A stretch of DNA of 64,000 nucleotides, taken from the NCBI GenBank assembly GCA_041640595.1, contig JBEPZY010000008.1, positions 66,566-130,565 of the forward strand, written 5' to 3'. The notes under the pieces were generated by a model. The model was not told the origin of the DNA. It made no database searches and saw only the letters and a program-made list of their open reading frames with translations. Source of the stretch: Gemmatales bacterium (GTDB lineage Bacteria > Planctomycetota > Planctomycetia > Gemmatales > HRBIN36). The position numbers were made by a program, and so were the translations under genes. Every line of letters starts with the position of its first letter. The first letter of the stretch is position 1. Positions 29,471 to 43,578 of this stretch are shown here, piece by piece.

Positions 29471-30112
29471 GGGCTATCCGGTGCCATTTTTCAGGGTTTT
29501 CCCGTACTACGGTGCAGTGCGGCTCCGCAAACCGGCAGGGAATATAGTTTCCGCTTCCGGGCTTAGGGTACGTTACCGCAAGCCAGCCAAACCAGCAGAC
29601 GGCACGGCTGTGTTATGCTGTCCAGTGAACGATGCTGGCAGCGCAAGTTGGCCAAGCCGGGTCGTTTACTGGGTAACGCTTGGTGCTCGGATGCAAAACC
29701 ATACTGGCCAGGCGGGCCGGAATACTCCCTGGGAAGCGTCGGACGGGATGTGCTTCTCTCAGGGATGGCCCTGCACGGGCCCGCAGGAGTAGCAGCCCTG
29801 GTCGGAATGGTGGTGAAGCGGGCCATCATTAACGCATTATCCCGACTGGACTAACGGCATTTTGCGGACTATAACGATTGCAATGGATGTGGGGAGATTG
29901 TGTGTCGGGTTGAGGATGGAAGGGACAGCGGGGGATAAGAATTTTCCCCCTCACACCGCTGGTTGTAACTTAGACTACAAAAGCGGGAATAACACCTGCC
30001 GGAACCGCTGGCCAGAAAAGCGACACTAATTTAAGGCAGCCATTCCCGCAAATAGACGGGCGGAGCATATCTGGCCAAACAACCTCCGAAGTTGCTGGAA
30101 AAGGAGAGGAGC

Positions 30113-33100
30113 ATGCTGCGACGGCGAGAAGTCCAACGGGGTGCGGCCCTTGCGGCGACGCTGGTCTTCTGGAGCGTGTTGCACGGCGACCCGGTCAATG
30201 TGCGAAAAGATGAACGCCCAAGTTCACCGCAGCCGACGGACCTGGGCCAGTTTTCTCAGGAAAAGTTGCGCCAAGAGGGGCTGTTGACCTATGAAACGCA
30301 GGATAAGGAAATCCTCTTTGCGCTGAAATTGCGCGTTCGTCTGAACCACACAGTTAACCAGCCGCGAGATTTCGTTGTTTTGTTCGACACCACAGCCAGT
30401 CAGGCAGGTGAAAGCTGGTTGGTGCAGCTGGCCCTGCTCAAGGAGCTTTGCCGGCAAATCAGCGACCAGGATCGCATCCGCGTGATCACTGTCAACACTC
30501 AGCCCGGCGAATTGACGGCGGGTTTCGTTCGCAAGGGCGATCCTGCACTGGAAAAGGCTCTCCAGCAGCTCTCCGACATCACGCCGATGGGTGCCGCCGA
30601 TCTGAAAGCCGCTCTCGACAAGGCCATCGAGAGCCTGGACATTCAGCCTGGCCGTCAGCCGGTGGTGGTGTACATCGGGGACGGCATGAGCAGTTTGCGG
30701 CCCATCGGCGGGCAAGAACGCCTTCGTTATGCTGAAACTTTCAACCGCCTGCGGGTCCCCTTCTATGCCATCCCGATCGGGTTCCGCCTCGACCCTGAAT
30801 TTTTGCACGGCATGACCGGAAGCACCGGCGGGGCCGTATGGCGGGTTGACATCCGTTACAGTGTGCCGGAACTGTGGAAACAATTTTTGCCGCAGCTGGA
30901 AGTGCCCGTGCTGTATCCGATCGAATATCAGTTGCCAGCGGAAGTCGCCGAAGCCTACCCGACGAAATTACCGCCTTTGCGTGCGGACACGTCAACCTTG
31001 ATCGTTGGCCGCCTGCGCCAACTTCCGCAAAAATTCGCCTGGCAAGTCAAGGGTACGGTGCAGGAGCAACCGGTGCAGGTGAGCGGCGAGGAAAAAGTAG
31101 TTCCGCCGGATGTCAGTATGTTCTTCCTCAAGGCGTTGGTAGAACAAGGCCGCAAAGATCGCGAAGCACCCGCGTTGTTACCTGCGGATCGCATGCTGGT
31201 GATGGCCCACAATCAGGTGCGAATGGTACGCGAAGAACTGCTGGCTCAAGGACGTTTGGCCATCCGCATGGATCGGCTTGACCTGGCCCGGCAACTGTTC
31301 GAGCAAGCGCAGCAGCTGGTGCCTCACGACCCGGAAGCCCGAGCCGCCGTCCGTTTGGTCGAACGGTTGCAGCAAGCTCCCGATGCAGCCCAGCGGCGTG
31401 AGCTTCTCGAACGGGGCTTAGCGCAAGCCGGACCAGCAGGCGGCGGTGGAGCCGCAGCCGCACAGCCCAACGCCAAGCCCGACCCGCAAGCCGAGGATTT
31501 ACTGCGCCGTCAGGAGCAGATCATTCGCATCCTCGAGCAGCAACTCAAAAACGACATTGACGAAGCGTTACGGCAGCTGGATCGGCCATTGACAGCGGCA
31601 GAAGCTAACGAGTGGCTGGCGCGGCTGAAACTTTTGACCGAAACCGTCCAGCGCGAAACGCAGATCGGCCCGCAGGTCAGAGAACAATTATTGCAGCGCC
31701 TGGCTGCAGCGATGCGTCAACTTGAGCGCCGATTAGACGAACAACGTCGTCGCGAAGCCGAAGCTCAGGCGCGAGAAATGCAGGCTCAGGAACTGGCTCG
31801 CCGTCAGGAACAGGTACTGGATGAACAGGCCCGCGTGCGGCAACTGATGCAGCAGTTCCATGCCCTGGTGCAGGCGAATCGGCTCATGGAAGCGTATCGC
31901 AAGGGCTTACAGATCGCGCAAGCGACCCCGGGTGAGTCGATCGGTGTGGCGACGTCGAGTCAGGCCTTAGCTTCGCGGTATCTAGGTGAATCCCAACGTC
32001 TGGTTCAGGAACGGCAGGCAAAGTACCTGGCCGCCATGCTGGAAATCGAACGCTCGCATGTGCCCTTCCCGGACGAGCCGCCTATCACGTTTGCTCCTGC
32101 CAGCTTTTACGAAACCAAGATTTTCCGCAACTGGAACGAATTATCACGACACCGTATCAAGCGGTGGCTGGTCAGCTATCTGGGCGAAGCACCATCGGAA
32201 CGTGCTCAGGAAATCGAACGGATGCTGTCGCAACCAAGTCCGCTTCTGGATCGCGACTTCCCCGCTGACACTCCGCTAAACCTGGTTCTGGAAACCATCG
32301 AGAAGAAGCTCAACCTTCCGATCCGCATAGACTTTGAGGCTTTCGGTGAAGAAGCGGCGAAATTTGATCCGCAGCAGATGACGCTCAAAAAGGCTGTGCG
32401 GGTCAGAAATATGTCGCTGGGGATGATCTTGCACGATGCGCTGGCCAGTGTCGAACCCCAGGCCACTTATATCATCCGGCGGGATACCATCGAAATTACC
32501 AGTCCGCAAAAGGCCATCGCTGAAAAGGTTCTTCGCGTGTATCCCGTGCCGGAACTGGTTTTGCCACCGCTATTCGGAGGCAACCCGTTCCAGCTCAACA
32601 CCATGATTTTCGGCTTTGGTTTCCAGATGGGCGTGCCCATGATGATGTGGGGGATGATGATGGGTATGCCTGGCATGATGATGGGCATGCCCGGCATGAT
32701 GATGGGTATGCCTGGCATGATGATGGGTATGCCCGGCATGATGATGGGAATGCCCGGCATGATGATGGGCATGCCTGGCATGATGATGGGGTTCCCCGGC
32801 ATGATGATGATGGGCGGTATGATGATGGGTATGATGATGGGCATGCCCGGCATGATGATGGGAATGCCCGGAATGATGATGGGGTTCCCCGGCATGATGA
32901 TGATGGGTGGCATGATGATGGGCATGATGATGGGTATGCCCGGCATGATGATGATGGGCGGTATGATGATGGGCGGCATGATGATGGGTGGCATGATGAT
33001 GGGTGGTTTGATGGCCATGGGCGGACCTAACCTGTTTGCAACCAATAGCGCGCCCATGCTCATCGAGCTTATCAAGCAAGTCGTTGGCGGGCCGGGCGAC

Positions 33101-34774
33101 TGGTATATTGACCCGATGAACATGATGATGCTGACCATGATGGGCCAGCAGCCGCCACAAGACTACAACCCTCTTCTGGCCAATTACATCGGTTACTATG
33201 ACCCGGCGTTTGCACTGGTGGTAAGGGCGACAGCGCGCCTGCATGAGCGCGAAACCCGCACGTTGACTTTGCCGGCAGCCGCAGGGGGCGGCGGTGCTGC
33301 TGGGGGTATGGGGCAAGCGGGTCATGGGGAACGCCATTTCGCCCACGCCGATATTGTCCGCGACGTCGAGGGAGTCATTGGCGGATTGGTGGGTGCACAG
33401 GCTTTGCGAGGCCGTGGGAAGGTAGTCGCTGCTCAGCTGGATGCAAAGAAGGCCTGGCAGGAGGCTCTGGCACGCAGCGATAAACCGGTGGATGCGGATG
33501 TGCTCTTTGCTGGGGCTGCTGCGCTGGCCGCCAGTGGGCACTGGAATCACGCGGCTGAGTTACTCAAAGCCGGTTTGCGTCAGGGTGGCGTAGCCCGCGA
33601 CTGGATGTTCGAAGCAATCGCCCTGGCTATTCGCATTCAGCACGGCGACCCGGAGGAAGAAGTTCGGTGCCTGCTCTCCGCAGCGGATTTGCGGCCCAGC
33701 GATGCTTTCGGTTTGCTCCAGGGCGCTGAAGTGCTGGCACGGCATGGCAAATACGCCCCGGCTATCTCGCTGACTCGATTGGCTGCTGAGCAAAACCCTG
33801 AATTGCCGCATCCGTACCTGTTCGCCCTGCAACTGGCGAGCAAAGCGAAGGACGTGCCCACGGTACGCTGGGCGGCGATGGAATTGCTCCGCCGCGATTG
33901 GCCCATCCAGTGTGCTGAACTTCACGCTACCGCTCAACGCACGCTCGAAGACCTGGCGGAAGCATTGCGGAAAGAAGGTCGCGCTCCGGATGCCGAAGCG
34001 CTTGCCCTGCCCGCAGCACAAATCCAGCGCCGCGATCTCGTGATTCGGCTGTTGTGGACTGGAAACGCCGATCTCGATCTGGAAATTTCCGAACCCTCCG
34101 GAAGCACCTGTTCCCTCACCCAGCGAGTAACTGCCAACGGTGGCAGTTTGCAAGCTGATTTTGATGCGGAACATCAGACCGAAATCTACAGCGTCGCAGA
34201 AGGTTACTCCGGCGAATATCGCGTGACCGTCAAACCGCGCTGGGGTAAGCCGGTGGCCGGCAAAGCGGTCGTCGAAATCATCACGCATCAGGGCACGCCC
34301 AACGAGCAGATTCGCCGCGAGATGATCACCGTGGCCAGGGAGCCGGTAACCCTGACCGTGCAGCTGCGCGACGGCCGACGCCAGCAACCTGCACCGGTAG
34401 CGCCGCTGGAAGCTTATCGCCTGGGCATTGACCCATTCTATCGGCCGACCTGGCCGGTCCCCGGTGCTGAGATGCTGCGGCAGTTAGCGGTTCCTATCAC
34501 CACGGGTATTGAAATACGTCGCTCGCCGTTCGGCCCGACCAGTATGGCCGATCCTTTGCCGCGACCAGGCGATGACGATAACTCCGGCCCGCAACTTGGG
34601 CCCGGTGGTGCGCCAGGCGTAGTGGTCATACCCGCCGGTGCCCTGGTCAATACGCAAGCTCTGGTCCATAGCGACCGTCGCTACGTTCGCCTTTCCGCAA
34701 ACGTGACCTTCAGTGGCATTACAGGTTTTGTGCCTGTGCCGTTGGCCAGCCTCAGCCCTGGCATACGGCCGTAA
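30113..34774 (+). CDS. giant secreted multidomain protein: signal peptide, vWA, coiled coil, STN-like module, Met/Gly repeat, helical repeats, DUF2135-like beta domain
   Basis: ATG at 30113 preceded by AAGGAGAGGAG (the track starts at TTG 30092). vWA with MIDAS-like DTTAS (30386-30400) and VVVYIGDGMS. About 400 aa of Q/R/E-rich coiled coil. LVIRLLWTGNADLDLEISEPSGSTC...GYSGEYRVTV resembles DUF2135. Confidence 0.9.
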   Translation: MLRRREVQRGAALAATLVFWSVLHGDPVNVRKDERPSSPQPTDLGQFSQEKLRQEGLLTYETQDKEILFALKLRVRLNHTVNQPRDFVVLFDTTASQAGESWLVQLALLKELCRQISDQDRIRVITVNTQPGELTAGFVRKGDPALEKALQQLSDITPMGAADLKAALDKAIESLDIQPGRQPVVVYIGDGMSSLRPIGGQERLRYAETFNRLRVPFYAIPIGFRLDPEFLHGMTGSTGGAVWRVDIRYSVPELWKQFLPQLEVPVLYPIEYQLPAEVAEAYPTKLPPLRADTSTLIVGRLRQLPQKFAWQVKGTVQEQPVQVSGEEKVVPPDVSMFFLKALVEQGRKDREAPALLPADRMLVMAHNQVRMVREELLAQGRLAIRMDRLDLARQLFEQAQQLVPHDPEARAAVRLVERLQQAPDAAQRRELLERGLAQAGPAGGGGAAAAQPNAKPDPQAEDLLRRQEQIIRILEQQLKNDIDEALRQLDRPLTAAEANEWLARLKLLTETVQRETQIGPQVREQLLQRLAAAMRQLERRLDEQRRREAEAQAREMQAQELARRQEQVLDEQARVRQLMQQFHALVQANRLMEAYRKGLQIAQATPGESIGVATSSQALASRYLGESQRLVQERQAKYLAAMLEIERSHVPFPDEPPITFAPASFYETKIFRNWNELSRHRIKRWLVSYLGEAPSERAQEIERMLSQPSPLLDRDFPADTPLNLVLETIEKKLNLPIRIDFEAFGEEAAKFDPQQMTLKKAVRVRNMSLGMILHDALASVEPQATYIIRRDTIEITSPQKAIAEKVLRVYPVPELVLPPLFGGNPFQLNTMIFGFGFQMGVPMMMWGMMMGMPGMMMGMPGMMMGMPGMMMGMPGMMMGMPGMMMGMPGMMMGFPGMMMMGGMMMGMMMGMPGMMMGMPGMMMGFPGMMMMGGMMMGMMMGMPGMMMMGGMMMGGMMMGGMMMGGLMAMGGPNLFATNSAPMLIELIKQVVGGPGDWYIDPMNMMMLTMMGQQPPQDYNPLLANYIGYYDPAFALVVRATARLHERETRTLTLPAAAGGGGAAGGMGQAGHGERHFAHADIVRDVEGVIGGLVGAQALRGRGKVVAAQLDAKKAWQEALARSDKPVDADVLFAGAAALAASGHWNHAAELLKAGLRQGGVARDWMFEAIALAIRIQHGDPEEEVRCLLSAADLRPSDAFGLLQGAEVLARHGKYAPAISLTRLAAEQNPELPHPYLFALQLASKAKDVPTVRWAAMELLRRDWPIQCAELHATAQRTLEDLAEALRKEGRAPDAEALALPAAQIQRRDLVIRLLWTGNADLDLEISEPSGSTCSLTQRVTANGGSLQADFDAEHQTEIYSVAEGYSGEYRVTVKPRWGKPVAGKAVVEIITHQGTPNEQIRREMITVAREPVTLTVQLRDGRRQQPAPVAPLEAYRLGIDPFYRPTWPVPGAEMLRQLAVPITTGIEIRRSPFGPTSMADPLPRPGDDDNSGPQLGPGGAPGVVVIPAGALVNTQALVHSDRRYVRLSANVTFSGITGFVPVPLASLSPGIRP
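32626..33023 (+). repeat. in-frame 21-nt tandem repeat encoding (MPGMMMG)n
   Basis: Units of ATG CCY GGC ATG ATG ATG GGN with synonymous variation. The higher-order pattern ending FPGMMMMGGMMMGMMMG occurs twice. Confidence 0.97.
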
Positions 34775-41493: not shown

Positions 41494-43578
41494 CTAAGCC
41501 GGTTGGTTGCTCTCAGCCGGATGAGCATCGAGCCAGGCACGAATCGCCTCCTGTCCGATCAGCGGTTGCTGACACGTTCCCTGCTCGCACAAGTAAATGG
41601 CGGGAGTCGGTGATAGCTTGTCGGCCAGTAGTGCAAACGGAGCGTAGCCGTGTGCCGGAAGAGTCGGATCGAGCCACGCCACGATGCGTCGCGGTTCAAA
41701 AGTTTGCCACAACGAAGCCCAGGCCTGCTGCAACACTGGCTCGGTCACGGGGCCCGACAGGACAATTTCGCGCACTGGTCCGATGGCGAAATCCACGCCG
41801 CATAGGAAGTGCCCGAACGCCGTCGGCAGGCGTTCGGCCAGTGGTGTCAGCCAGCGGAAAATGGCGTCGGCACAGTCACGGAAATCGGCTTGGCCTGTGA
41901 AATGCCATAAGCGCAGGAGCATCCAGGCAGCGGCACTGTTGCCCGAAGGAGTCGAACCGTCCTGGGCATCTTTCTGCCGAACCAGGAGCGGTTCATGGGC
42001 CAGTTGGGCGTAGAACAAGCCTCCGCCTTCCGGATCACGAAAACGTGCCATCATCTGCTCGGCCAGCACCACCGTATTTTCCAGCCAGTGTATTTCACCT
42101 GTGCATTCGTAAAGCGACAGCAGGGCATCTGCGAACAAGGCGTAGTCGTCCAGGAAGGCGGGAATTTCCGGTAAACGATCCGGCAAACACGCGTGGAAAA
42201 GTTCGCCCGACCTCGGCTGCAAATGGGCGAGAATCCAGTTCGCGGCCCGACACGCCAGCTCGAGATAATGTGGATCAAAGACGCGGCCAGCCAGCGCCAG
42301 TGCCTGAATCGTCAGGGCGTTCCAGGCCGTGAGGATTTTTTCGTCGCGCGACGGTGCAATGCGTTGCTGTCGGGCTGCCAGTAATCGGCCCCGCGCTTCC
42401 TCCAGCCGGGCGAGCAACTCCTGCTCGGACATCTTGAGCAAGCGTGCGCAGACCGGCAGCGGTTTCGCCTGAGCCAAGACCTGTTTTCCTTCCCAGTTGC
42501 CAGTCTCGGTAACATCGTAAACGTAGGCGACAATATCATACAGTTCGGGTGGCAAAATCGCCCGCAGCTCCGTTGCCGTCCAGACATAATACTTGCCTTC
42601 TTCACCTTCGCTGTCGGCGTCGAGACTGCTGAAAAACGGGCCGTCCGGAGCCATCATCTCGCGTTCCAGCCACGTCAACGTTTGCTCCACAACCTGGCGA
42701 TAACGAGCCACACCGCTCACCAGCCAGGCTTCGGTATAAGCCAGGCTCAAAAGGGCGTTGTCGTACAACATTTTCTCGAAATGCGGTACCAACCAGCGCT
42801 CATCGGTGCTGTAACGGTGAAAACCGCCGCCCACGTGATCGTAAATGCCACCGCTGGCCATGCCATCCAGGGTAAGCTTCACCATTTCCAAAATGTCTGC
42901 CTGCCGAAAGCGGTGAAAGGCACGCAACAAGGCACGCAGTTCCATAGCATGAGGAAATTTAGGAGCGCCGGCTAACCCGCCGTAAACGCGATCCAGATTC
43001 TGCTGCCATACCTCGACTAAGTGCCGCAACAATTCTTCGGAAGGCTCACTTTCTGGCAGGGATAGATGCAGGGTTTTTTGCAAATGTGCAGCAACTTCGT
43101 CGGCGGTCTGAAGGACATCGGCACGGCGTAATTGCCAGGCCTGGGCTAGTGCGACGATCACATCGCGGAATCCCGGTCGCCCCCAGCGCCGCTCCGGTGG
43201 GAAATAGGTGCCGGCATAAAATGGCTTCAGGTCGGGCGTCAGGAAGACCGACATCGGCCAGCCTCCCTGTCCGGTCATGGCTACGACCGCCTGCATGTAC
43301 AACTGATCCAAATCCGGCCGCTCTTCGCGATCCACCTTGATGTTCACGAAATGCTCATTGAGTAAGCGTGCAATCTCAGGGTTTTCAAAACTTTCCCGTT
43401 CCATGACATGGCACCAGTGGCAGGCCGCATAACCGATACTCAGGAAGATAGGCTTGTTCTCCTGCCGTGCCCGTTGCAGTGCCTCATCCGACCACGGATA
43501 CCAGTCCACCGGATTATCGGCGTGTTGCCGCAGGTATGGACTTGCCGAGTCCGCCAGCCGATTCTTTTTGCCCGTCAT
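41494..43578 (-). CDS. thioredoxin-domain protein, DUF255 / YyaL family
   Basis: NRLADSASPYLRQHADNPVDWYPWSDEALQRARQENKPIFLSIGYAACHWCHVME, followed by a six-hairpin glycosidase-like C-terminal region. 694 aa. Confidence 0.93.
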   Translation of the reverse strand: MTGKKNRLADSASPYLRQHADNPVDWYPWSDEALQRARQENKPIFLSIGYAACHWCHVMERESFENPEIARLLNEHFVNIKVDREERPDLDQLYMQAVVAMTGQGGWPMSVFLTPDLKPFYAGTYFPPERRWGRPGFRDVIVALAQAWQLRRADVLQTADEVAAHLQKTLHLSLPESEPSEELLRHLVEVWQQNLDRVYGGLAGAPKFPHAMELRALLRAFHRFRQADILEMVKLTLDGMASGGIYDHVGGGFHRYSTDERWLVPHFEKMLYDNALLSLAYTEAWLVSGVARYRQVVEQTLTWLEREMMAPDGPFFSSLDADSEGEEGKYYVWTATELRAILPPELYDIVAYVYDVTETGNWEGKQVLAQAKPLPVCARLLKMSEQELLARLEEARGRLLAARQQRIAPSRDEKILTAWNALTIQALALAGRVFDPHYLELACRAANWILAHLQPRSGELFHACLPDRLPEIPAFLDDYALFADALLSLYECTGEIHWLENTVVLAEQMMARFRDPEGGGLFYAQLAHEPLLVRQKDAQDGSTPSGNSAAAWMLLRLWHFTGQADFRDCADAIFRWLTPLAERLPTAFGHFLCGVDFAIGPVREIVLSGPVTEPVLQQAWASLWQTFEPRRIVAWLDPTLPAHGYAPFALLADKLSPTPAIYLCEQGTCQQPLIGQEAIRAWLDAHPAESNQPA

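What the first reader, a model, noticed from the sequence alone, without database searches (positions are those of the whole stretch)
30113..34774. Unusual domain combination in the 1553-aa protein: vWA, coiled coil, STN-like module, Met repeat, helical repeats, DUF2135-like beta domain
The signal-like N-terminus is LRRREVQRGAALAATLVFWSVLHG. The vWA domain has a DxTxS MIDAS variant (DTTAS). About 400 aa of Q/R/E-rich coiled coil follow. The segment LNLVLETIEKKLNLPIRIDFEAF...MSLGMILHDALASVEPQATYIIRRDTIEITS resembles secretin/TonB short N-terminal (STN/N0) modules. Next come the Met block and TPR-like helices. The segment LVIRLLWTGNADLDLEISEPSGSTC...GYSGEYRVTVKPRWG matches the DUF2135 pattern normally found C-terminal to VIT-vWA proteins. 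vWA plus DUF2135 is a known pairing. The coiled coil, STN-like and Met insertions between them are not known to me. The C-terminal ...HSDRRYVRLSANVTFSGI looks like a conserved tail of unknown role.
Basis: partly seen in the sequence, partly recalled or inferred. Interest (0 to 1): 0.6.

Follow-up and report, generated by a model that had tools for sequence, protein, structure and literature searches.

The report
Secretin-related vWA envelope protein, Met-rich insert
This is a real, 1553-residue secreted protein of a large but unstudied Planctomycetota family that joins a von Willebrand A domain to pieces borrowed from outer-membrane secretin channels, and in this lineage its usual glycine-rich floppy insert has become a 139-residue stretch that is 54% methionine.

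Summary
The ORF (30113-34774, +) is real and conserved. Confirmed: a signal-like N-terminus; a vWA domain (Pfam VWA_3, 52.8 bits) with a DTTAS MIDAS variant; a Met block (75 Met in 139 residues, 21-bp DNA repeat); a confident beta-sandwich; a conserved tail. The "STN-like" segment folds as a secretin N0/STN domain (AlphaFold2 pLDDT 80-90; best Foldseek hit PilQ N0).

New findings. The middle and the tail are homologous to a planctomycetal secretin (P0042). The Met block lies where that secretin has its own low-complexity insert, which splits a segment weakly matching Pfam Secretin_N; by homology, the family's insert splits an N1/Secretin_N-like unit. The tail matches a segment inside the secretin domain's N-terminal half. 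The pore-forming C-terminal half is absent, so this protein is not a secretin.

DUF2135 is not supported at Pfam thresholds (3 of 41 relatives, best E 0.15). "400 aa coiled coil" is overstated.

The architecture is not rare. At least 554 species genomes, mostly Gemmatales, Isosphaerales and other Planctomycetota, encode a relative, and 93 of 98 full-length proteins examined share the layout. No curated family or paper describes it.

Best guess: an envelope scaffold that docks onto, or assembles like, secretin periplasmic rings. This function is inferred, not shown.

The parts
30113..34774 (+). Whole gene, 1553 codons plus stop; monocistronic (about 320 bp intergenic upstream, convergent gene downstream)
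   Evidence: 100% identical protein P0002 and 43 homologues
30113..30184 (+). Signal-peptide-like N-terminus (residues 1-24)
   Evidence: Read from the sequence; the family consensus keeps a hydrophobic N-terminus ending in xGD; no predictor was run
30371..30832 (+). vWA domain (residues 87-240); MIDAS D92-x-T94-x-S96, Thr position replaced by Ala (GAADL), D190 kept
   Evidence: Pfam VWA_3 52.8 bits, VWA_2 28.9 bits; alignment to ITIH4; family invariants G160, G189, D190
30833..31102 (+). Post-vWA region of the inter-alpha-trypsin-inhibitor / VIT-vWA kind (residues 241-330) with the invariant LPPLRxD motif
   Evidence: The ITIH4 alignment runs to query residue about 329; TIGR03788 match 78-323; invariants L286-D292
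31130..32032 (+). Helical A/L/R/Q/E-rich spacer (residues 340-640): TPR-like unit 375-406, G/A/P-rich break 437-460, heptad-periodic part about 456-540, E/R/Q-rich run 539-575
   Evidence: residues 530-640 align to secretin P0042
32045..32167 (+). Most conserved motif of the family, ERSHVPFPDEPP...W..L..R (residues 645-685); also present upstream of N0 in secretin P0042
   Evidence: Invariants P651, E655, P656, W674, R681; this pattern found relatives in at least 554 genomes
32255..32503 (+). N0/STN-fold domain (residues 715-797)
   Evidence: AlphaFold2 pLDDT 80-90; Foldseek best hit PilQ N0 4ar0, probability 0.99, then DotD, GspD N0, InvG, FpvA, FecR-type domains; homologous P0042 region scores Pfam STN E 1.6e-4
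32504..32566 (+). Conserved segment before the insert, ...EKVLRVYPVPELVLPP (residues 798-818); proposed first strand of an N1/Secretin_N-like unit
   Evidence: Conserved VYPVADLVIPIP in the family and in P0042; the strand assignment is inferred from Secretin_N topology and from P0042
32609..33025 (+). Met/Gly/Pro repeat (residues 833-971), units MMMGMPG / MMMGFPG / MMMGG; a low-complexity insert whose copy number varies
   Evidence: the same slot is G-rich (median 33% G, 2% M) in 94 relatives
33035..33262 (+). Segment after the insert, LIELIKQVV...ALVVRATARLHE (residues 975-1050); proposed second half of the N1/Secretin_N-like unit
   Evidence: Aligns to P0042 1257-1320, which matches Pfam Secretin_N profile 30-64, E 0.001; the AlphaFold2 model here has low confidence; detectable in 57 of 98 full-length relatives
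33410..34012 (+). TPR-like helical region (residues 1100-1300)
   Evidence: Sub-threshold TPR_14 E 0.004; designed TPR protein E 0.04; TPR families match 10-23 of 26 relatives at E<=1
34025..34387 (+). Beta-sandwich domain (residues 1305-1425) with the motif RDLVI.L.W.G.ADLDL.V.EP.G..CS
   Evidence: AlphaFold2 pLDDT about 90; only generic Ig-like/CBM-like Foldseek hits; Pfam DUF2135 sub-threshold in 3 of 41 relatives
34595..34732 (+). Tail (residues 1495-1540), predicted beta-hairpin ...ALVNTQALVHSDRRYVRLSANVTFSGI; homologous to a segment inside the N-terminal half of a secretin domain
   Evidence: Tail HMM against P0042 1533-1582: 38.3 bits, E 4e-8 at Z=1e6; that P0042 segment lies within a single Pfam Secretin match (profile 7-168, 77.5 bits) once its G-rich insert is removed; strands predicted at low confidence

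Best explanation
The gene encodes a Sec-exported cell-envelope protein of a large Planctomycetota-specific family. Shown: an inter-alpha-trypsin-inhibitor-type vWA head; a long helical spacer; an N0/STN-fold domain; a fast-evolving low-complexity insert; a TPR-like region; a beta-sandwich; and a C-terminal segment homologous to part of a secretin domain. Apart from the vWA head, the TPR-like region and the beta-sandwich, the protein is collinear with, and homologous to, a planctomycetal secretin. It lacks the C-terminal half of the secretin domain that solved secretins use to build the channel. Inferred from P0042: the insert splits an N1/Secretin_N-like unit. Inferred mechanism: the N0/N1-type modules, which form the stacked periplasmic rings of secretins, let this protein oligomerise like a secretin or dock onto one. 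The tail hairpin would add to or bind a secretin barrel. The helical spacer would bridge the wide planctomycetal periplasm. The vWA head would hold a ligand, such as a pilus or pseudopilus component, a wall polymer or a substrate, through a non-canonical metal site. The low-complexity insert is a flexible, self-cohesive segment with hydrophobic stickers (F, L or M) set in glycine spacers. In this lineage the stickers are methionine.
For: Export and domains. Homology to secretin P0042: residues 530-894 (75 bits, E 5e-17) and the tail. Tail HMM: 38.3 bits, E 4e-8. The matching P0042 segment lies inside Pfam Secretin, and P0042 is a genuine secretin, matching GspD and PilQ in PDB. The homologous N0 and N1 regions of P0042 score STN E 1.6e-4 and Secretin_N E 1e-3. 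The layout is kept in 93 of 98 full-length relatives and relatives occur in at least 554 species genomes, so selection keeps the parts together. The insert is always low-complexity but its composition drifts by lineage (G/L/F/Q, GGM or MMMGMPG). Its length varies among relatives at least 90% identical (163-185 aa between fixed flanking motifs). This indicates constraint on composition rather than on sequence. Precedents: the PilQ N0 domain binds the beta-sandwich of PilP, and the vWA protein PilY1 sits in the PilQ secretin (PMC11531922-style cryo-ET study, PMC11525922). Planctomycetes have an enlarged periplasm and outer-membrane crateriform complexes (PMC11131199).
Against: No conserved operon links the gene to secretion or pilus genes. 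Neighbours differ between lineages, and secretin P0042 is itself an orphan gene. Pfam STN, Secretin_N and Secretin do not hit the query itself. The N1-like half is modelled with low confidence and is detectable in only 57 of 98 relatives. The secretin link rests on one secretin sequence. Ring formation, localisation and partners are untested. The MIDAS threonine is replaced by alanine, so metal-dependent binding is uncertain.
Confidence: 0.4

Rival explanations
1. It is a free-standing periplasmic or surface adhesin/scaffold of the VIT-vWA (inter-alpha-trypsin-inhibitor-like) kind. The vWA head and a DUF2135-like beta domain do the work. The N0-like, TPR-like and low-complexity parts are only spacers or generic interaction modules, with no link to a secretin machine.
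For: The vWA and the region after it are closest to ITIH4/ITIH1 (E 0.006) and TIGR03788. Distant relatives P0040, P0041 and P0043 carry VIT + vWA + TPR. DUF2135 is the most recurrent, though sub-threshold, Pfam family for the beta domain (3 of 41). There is no secretion-gene neighbourhood.
Against: It does not explain why four separate segments (the helical end with PFPDEPP, N0, the insert's flanks, and the tail) are collinear with and homologous to a secretin. No VIT domain is present.
Confidence: 0.3
2. The Met block is the functional core: a periplasmic Cu(I)/Ag(I)-binding or oxidant-scavenging methionine sponge, as in the Met-rich regions of copper-resistance proteins.
For: 54% Met over 139 residues. 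Met-rich periplasmic segments bind Cu(I) in CueO, PcoA, CusF and CopC-type proteins (general knowledge, not tested here). The block is maintained, with changing copy number, among close relatives.
Against: In 94 relatives the same slot has a median of 2% Met and 33% Gly. Met at 15% or more is found in the Bacterium HR36-like clade (P0001-P0005 and relatives at least 90% identical) and in five other proteins (P0031, P0160, P0171, P0185, P0210). Metal binding therefore cannot be the family's function. No His/Met motifs of the MxxMxxH type and no copper genes lie nearby.
Confidence: 0.12
3. It is a FecR/TonB-type cell-surface signalling component that uses its STN-fold domain to contact a TonB-dependent transducer.
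For: Foldseek also hits the FpvA/PupA signalling domains and FecR/PupR C-terminal domains. Distant vWA relatives carry FecR domains.
Against: No FecR, sigma-factor or TonB-dependent receptor gene lies nearby. The sequence homology is to a secretin, not to FecR. There is no transmembrane anchor.
Confidence: 0.04
4. The long ORF is an artefact: a fusion of separate genes or a misassembly across the repeat.
For: Many database entries for relatives are broken at the low-complexity region.
Against: Ninety-three full-length proteins have the same order of parts. Most of 83 loci carry one 1500-1600-aa ORF. The broken versions show out-of-frame read-through of the repeat (P0227, P0044), meaning that they are the artefacts.
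Confidence: 0.01

Closest known systems
Secretins (GspD, PilQ, InvG; Pfam STN, Secretin_N, Secretin), in particular the planctomycetal secretin P0042
   Same: N0/STN-fold domain. An apparent N1/Secretin_N-like unit split by a low-complexity insert, as in P0042. The conserved PFPDEPP motif and helical region upstream. A tail homologous to a segment inside the secretin domain's N-terminal half.
   Different: No C-terminal half of the secretin domain (the part matching GspD/PilQ in P0042 is absent). A vWA head, a TPR-like region and a beta-sandwich are added. Pfam secretin models do not hit the query itself.
VIT-vWA proteins / inter-alpha-trypsin inhibitor heavy chains (ITIH1/4; TIGR03788 marine sortase target; often with DUF2135)
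   Same: VWA_3-type vWA followed by the same post-vWA region. A C-terminal beta domain with a faint DUF2135 signal.
   Different: No VIT domain. MIDAS threonine replaced by alanine. About 1000 residues of helical, secretin-like and low-complexity sequence lie between the vWA and the beta domain. No sortase signal.
PilY1 (vWA tip adhesin of type IV pili)
   Same: A large exported vWA protein. PilY1 is proposed to sit in and gate the PilQ secretin (PMC11525922).
   Different: PilY1 has a C-terminal beta-propeller and no N0, N1 or secretin-like parts. No sequence relationship was found here.
FG-nucleoporin repeats and Met-rich low-complexity domains (e.g. yeast ataxin-2/Pbp1)
   Same: Hydrophobic stickers (F or M) in Gly-rich spacers. 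Composition is conserved while sequence and length drift.
   Different: This is an analogy only. The protein is bacterial and exported, gel or condensate formation is untested, and Met at 54% is far above those examples.

Membership tests
vWA domain (Pfam VWA_3 / VWA_2) | Profile score above Pfam's gathering cutoff | tested here: met
   VWA_3 52.8 bits against 27; VWA_2 28.9 against 27; all 26 relatives match
vWA domain (Pfam VWA_3 / VWA_2) | Complete MIDAS: DxSxS, a Thr, and an Asp | tested here: not met
   D92-T-T94-A-S96 is a conservative variant of DxSxS, and D190 is kept. The Thr aligned to ITIH4 GGTNI is Ala (GAADL), and this holds family-wide (GAxDL)
VIT-vWA / ITIH-like proteins | VIT domain N-terminal to the vWA | tested here: not met
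   No VIT hit in the query, and VIT is not among the 25 most frequent families in 26 relatives. Only about 60 residues precede the vWA
VIT-vWA / ITIH-like proteins | vWA plus the following region similar to ITIH or TIGR03788 | tested here: inconclusive
   ITIH4 E 0.006 over residues 82-329; TIGR03788 39.4 bits against a cutoff of 551.65
STN / secretin N0 domain (Pfam PF07660) | Pfam STN profile match | tested here: not met
   No hit on the query segment at E<=10; E 0.086 in 2 of 26 relatives; 21.9 bits against 28.4 in the homologous P0042 region
STN / secretin N0 domain (Pfam PF07660) | N0/STN fold | tested here: met
   AlphaFold2 pLDDT 80-90. The Foldseek list is dominated by N0/STN-fold proteins; the best is PilQ N0, probability 0.99, although E-values are weak (0.04 or above)
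Secretin_N (N1-type ring domain, PF03958) | Profile match or a confident fold | tested here: inconclusive
   No Pfam hit on the query even with the insert spliced out. The homologous P0042 segment gives E 0.001. The AlphaFold2 model here is below pLDDT 60
Secretin (PF00263) | Complete secretin C-domain, including the conserved C-terminal half | tested here: not met
   No Pfam Secretin hit. The protein ends a median of 11.5 residues after the tail in relatives. Only about 50 residues are homologous to P0042's secretin domain
DUF2135 (PF09906) | Pfam profile match | tested here: not met
   The query has no hit at E<=10. Three of 41 relatives' beta domains match, best E 0.15. No PF09906-labelled protein appeared among 83 profile hits
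DUF2135 (PF09906) | Remote homology by profile-profile comparison | not testable with these tools
TPR repeats | Pfam TPR match above cutoff | tested here: inconclusive
   The query is sub-threshold (TPR_14 18.1 bits against 23.5). Relatives reach E 2e-7, and 23 of 26 match TPR_2 at E<=1
Coiled coil | Sustained heptad periodicity | tested here: inconclusive
   A crude 3.5-residue hydrophobic periodicity test exceeds shuffles only at about 435-540 and 687 (z 2-3.6). No dedicated predictor was available

The most novel reading that the evidence does not exclude
The family is a non-pore paralogue of planctomycetal secretins that co-assembles with them in an envelope complex, possibly the still uncharacterised crateriform structures. 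The low-complexity inserts of both proteins (GLFG-like in the secretin; G/F/L/Q or Met-rich here) would then form a cohesive, nucleoporin-like gel that filters what passes. In this lineage the gel would be built from methionine and so would be sensitive to oxidation.
Probability: 0.1. Interest if true: 0.8.

Novelty: new variant of a known kind. Interest (0 to 1): 0.5.

Why it matters
Planctomycetes have an unusually wide periplasm and outer-membrane complexes whose proteins are largely unidentified. A 1500-residue exported protein found in hundreds of their species and built partly from secretin modules is a concrete candidate component, and it can be tested in cultured species such as Limnoglobus roseus. 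It also shows that secretin N-terminal modules, and a piece of the secretin domain itself, can be reused in a protein that cannot form the channel. The 54%-Met repeat occupies a slot that is glycine/phenylalanine-rich in relatives. It is a natural experiment in swapping the hydrophobic 'sticker' of a low-complexity region, useful for studying cohesive disordered regions outside the cytoplasm.

Tried and rejected
- PDB sequence-profile searches with the N0 module (A2) and with the beta domain plus tail (A4) gave nothing meaningful.
- Foldseek on the beta domain gave only generic beta-sandwiches: DUF4425, the AMPK carbohydrate-binding module and MmpS5.
- Word-indexed profile searches with A2 and A5 returned mostly short proteins. 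Those inspected (P0044-P0048, P0053, P0062) are fragments or out-of-frame read-through of the same gene. No new architectures and no DUF2135-labelled proteins appeared.
A1 was used instead.
- Gene-neighbourhood clustering over 83 loci found only lineage-restricted synteny: a coiled-coil protein, a mannose-6-phosphate-isomerase-like protein, HflX, an FHA protein and ABC-transporter genes. No secretion or pilus genes recurred.
- No paralogue of the N0, beta or tail modules exists elsewhere in the window.
- A split-secretin idea, with the second half encoded downstream, was rejected. The downstream gene is convergent and has no Pfam match, and the family also lacks the first strands of the secretin domain (one search compared).
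- The Tat-signal reading of 'RRR' was set aside because the following residues do not fit the motif (by inspection).
- Literature searches found no paper on this family.
Full report
**1. The gene**

The window holds one uninterrupted ORF at 30092-34774 on the + strand. The region is about 59% G+C, like the rest of the window. An identical protein (P0002) and relatives at 98-99% identity exist in public assemblies. The nearest named relative is from 'Bacterium HR36' at 70% identity. The gene looks monocistronic. Upstream genes include a VTT/DedA-domain protein and a possible glycosyltransferase; the downstream gene is convergent and has no Pfam match.

**2.

*vWA domain.* It is solid: VWA_3 at residues 87-240 scores 52.8 bits against a cutoff of 27.
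- DTTAS is a conservative variant of the family's DTSAS.
- The best PDB relatives are inter-alpha-trypsin-inhibitor heavy chains. ITIH4 gives E 0.006, and the alignment runs through residue about 329.
- NCBIfam TIGR03788, a VIT-vWA sortase target, matches residues 78-323 far below its cutoff.
- The head is therefore of the VIT-vWA kind but has no VIT domain.
- The MIDAS threonine (ITIH GGTNI) is alanine here (GAADL) and across the family.

*Helical region.* Residues 340-700 are 62% A/L/R/Q/E.
- A crude heptad test beats shuffles only around 456-540.
- Residues 375-406 are TPR-like, and 437-460 is a G/A/P-rich break.
- '400 aa of coiled coil' is therefore an overstatement.

*STN-like segment.* It has no Pfam hit. 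AlphaFold2, run on a 17-sequence alignment, models residues about 690-805 at pLDDT 80-90. The Foldseek list is dominated by N0/STN-fold proteins:
- PilQ N0 (probability 0.99);
- DotD, GspD N0-N1 and InvG;
- FpvA and PupA signalling domains;
- FecR/PupR C-terminal domains;
- the phage baseplate hub domains known to share this fold.
The E-values are weak (0.04 or above), partly because 60% of the model is disordered.

*Met block.* It is real and extreme: 75 Met, 42 Gly, 12 Pro and 5 Phe in 139 residues. It is encoded by a 21-bp tandem repeat.

*Beta domain.* Residues 1305-1425 form a confident beta-sandwich (pLDDT about 90). Only generic structural neighbours were found.
- Pfam DUF2135 never hits the query.
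- In a scan of 41 diverse beta domains at E<=10, DUF2135 matched three, best E 0.15.
- It was nonetheless the most recurrent family in that scan.
- This is a hint, not support.

**3. The link to secretins**

One distant hit of the first search, P0042 (1799 aa), carries a Pfam Secretin domain. Its last 63 residues match GspD, PilQ, InvG and RcpA in PDB. The query aligns to it in four collinear places:
- the end of the helical region with the ERSHVPFPDEPP...W...R motif;
- the N0-like domain and VYPVxDLVxP (together 75 bits, E 5e-17);
- the segment after the low-complexity insert;
- the tail (ALVHSDRRYVRLSANVTFSGIT against AVISADRRYVRLTVTPSFTTIT).

A 51-position HMM of the family tail scores 38.3 bits on P0042 residues 1533-1582, E 4e-8 for a million-sequence search space.

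In intact P0042, Pfam Secretin matches only profile positions 89-168. With P0042's GGFGGGLGG insert removed, the domain matches in one piece: profile 7-168, 77.5 bits. The DRRYVRL segment lies inside that match.

With its insert trimmed, the N-terminal region of P0042 scores STN E 1.6e-4 and Secretin_N E 1e-3. Secretin_N matches the segment after the insert. The insert therefore appears to split an N1-type unit between its first strand (VYPV...) and its first helix (LIELIKQVV in the query). This topology is inferred. The query's own model is poor there.

The family ends shortly after the tail (median 11.5 residues). It has nothing corresponding to the conserved C-terminal half of the secretin domain, so it is not a secretin.

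**4. How common it is**

- A profile of the beta domain plus tail finds 2883 representatives of 50%-identity clusters, 559 of them at E<=1e-30.
Of the best 80, most are labelled Gemmataceae, Gemmatales, Isosphaera/Singulisphaera or Planctomycetota. They include the complete genome of Limnoglobus roseus PX52.
- Pirellulales-type members (Roseiconus, Thermoguttaceae) appear.
- A few records carry non-planctomycete labels. These probably reflect binning, but this was not checked.
- Of 98 full-length proteins in hand, 93 have vWA, helical region, PFPDEPP, N0, (N1 half), TPR-like region, beta domain and tail in that order.
- Sources name them only 'VWA domain-containing protein', 'TPR repeat protein' or 'hypothetical protein'.
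- No NCBIfam model fits, and no paper was found.

**5. The low-complexity insert**

- Across 94 relatives the slot is always low-complexity: median length 116 residues, 33% Gly, 2% Met.
- Gemmatales-type members end it with a conserved GQFGNLGGQFG pattern. Pirellulales-type members use GGMGGM.
- Only the HR36-like clade reaches 26-49% Met across the whole slot.
- Among relatives at least 90% identical, the stretch between the fixed flanking motifs varies from 163 to 185 residues, and units switch between MMMGMPG, MMMGFPG and MMMAGGFPG.
- This pattern fits selection on composition (flexible glycine with hydrophobic F, L or M) rather than on sequence.
- It argues against metal binding as the family's function.
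- Met-rich low-complexity domains are discussed in the phase-separation literature. A review is listed (PMC8394241) but was not read in detail. The yeast ataxin-2 example is from my own knowledge.

**6. Context**

Clustering ORFs around 83 loci found only lineage-restricted synteny and no recurrent secretion or pilus genes. P0042 is also an orphan gene. One locus (L002) has an 891-residue version ending in the insert. It is followed by a 404-residue paralogue that aligns to the query's N0-like domain, VYPV strand and post-insert segment, joined by only a short linker. A Flp pilin gene lies 640 bp upstream.

**7. Interpretation**

*Shown.* This is an exported, conserved, multi-domain envelope protein. 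Its parts are related to ITIH-type vWA proteins and to planctomycetal secretins.

*Inferred.*
- It oligomerises like the periplasmic rings of a secretin, or docks onto them.
- The tail contacts or extends a secretin barrel.
- The helical region spans the wide periplasm.
- The vWA head binds a partner.

*Precedents.* The PilQ N0 domain binds the PilP beta-sandwich, and the vWA protein PilY1 is proposed to plug PilQ (PMC11525922).

*Main rival.* A free-standing ITIH-like adhesin or scaffold.

*Less likely.* A copper or oxidant role for the Met block as the primary function, and a FecR-type signalling role.

**8. Verdict**

The finding is real and partly well read. The architecture is not a rarity of this genome. 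It is the hallmark of a widespread, unnamed Planctomycetota family, best described as a secretin-related vWA envelope protein. It is a new variant built from known kinds of parts, of moderate interest. The function is unproven.

Noticed in passing
L083:4786-10185 (protein P0042): A planctomycetal secretin's Pfam Secretin domain is interrupted by a GGFGGGLGG (GLFG-like) low-complexity insert of roughly 100 residues. Pfam sees the whole domain (profile 7-168, 77.5 bits) only after the insert is removed. The gene is an orphan, with no secretion-system neighbours.
   Followed up: partly
Proteins P0033 and P0035 (family members), C-termini; also mid-protein in P0035: An extra module of about 90 residues, 'CWVAREVYG..NPRWL.FR.W...AP.WL..LY..HGE.FA.W', follows the G/M-rich low-complexity tail. 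In P0035 the same motif also follows the mid-protein insert. I do not recognise it.
   Followed up: no
Protein P0227 (at least 90% identical relative), inside the Met block; proteins P0044-P0048, P0053 and P0062: 'IPRHDDDGRVPRHDDDG' in P0227 is the ATGATGATGGG repeat read out of frame and then back in. The short 'homologues' inspected are the same gene broken or read out of frame in the GC-rich low-complexity region. Gene calls for this family are often fragmented in public data.
   Followed up: partly
L002:7192-12220: In one Pirellulales-like contig the family gene ends inside the GM-rich insert (891 aa). The next gene (404 aa) aligns to the query's N0-like domain, VYPV strand and post-insert segment with only a short linker. 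A Flp pilin gene (PF04964) lies 640 bp upstream on the other strand.
   Followed up: partly
window 41494-43578 (-): A 694-aa protein with a thioredoxin-like DUF255/DsbH domain (266 bits) and a weak N-acylglucosamine 2-epimerase-like region. It is unrelated to the finding.
   Followed up: no
window 31727-31837 (residues 539-575): An E/R/Q-rich run, RLDEQRRREAEAQAREMQAQELARRQEQVLDEQAR, resembles a charged single alpha-helix more than a heptad coiled coil. Its heptad periodicity is not above shuffles.
   Followed up: partly
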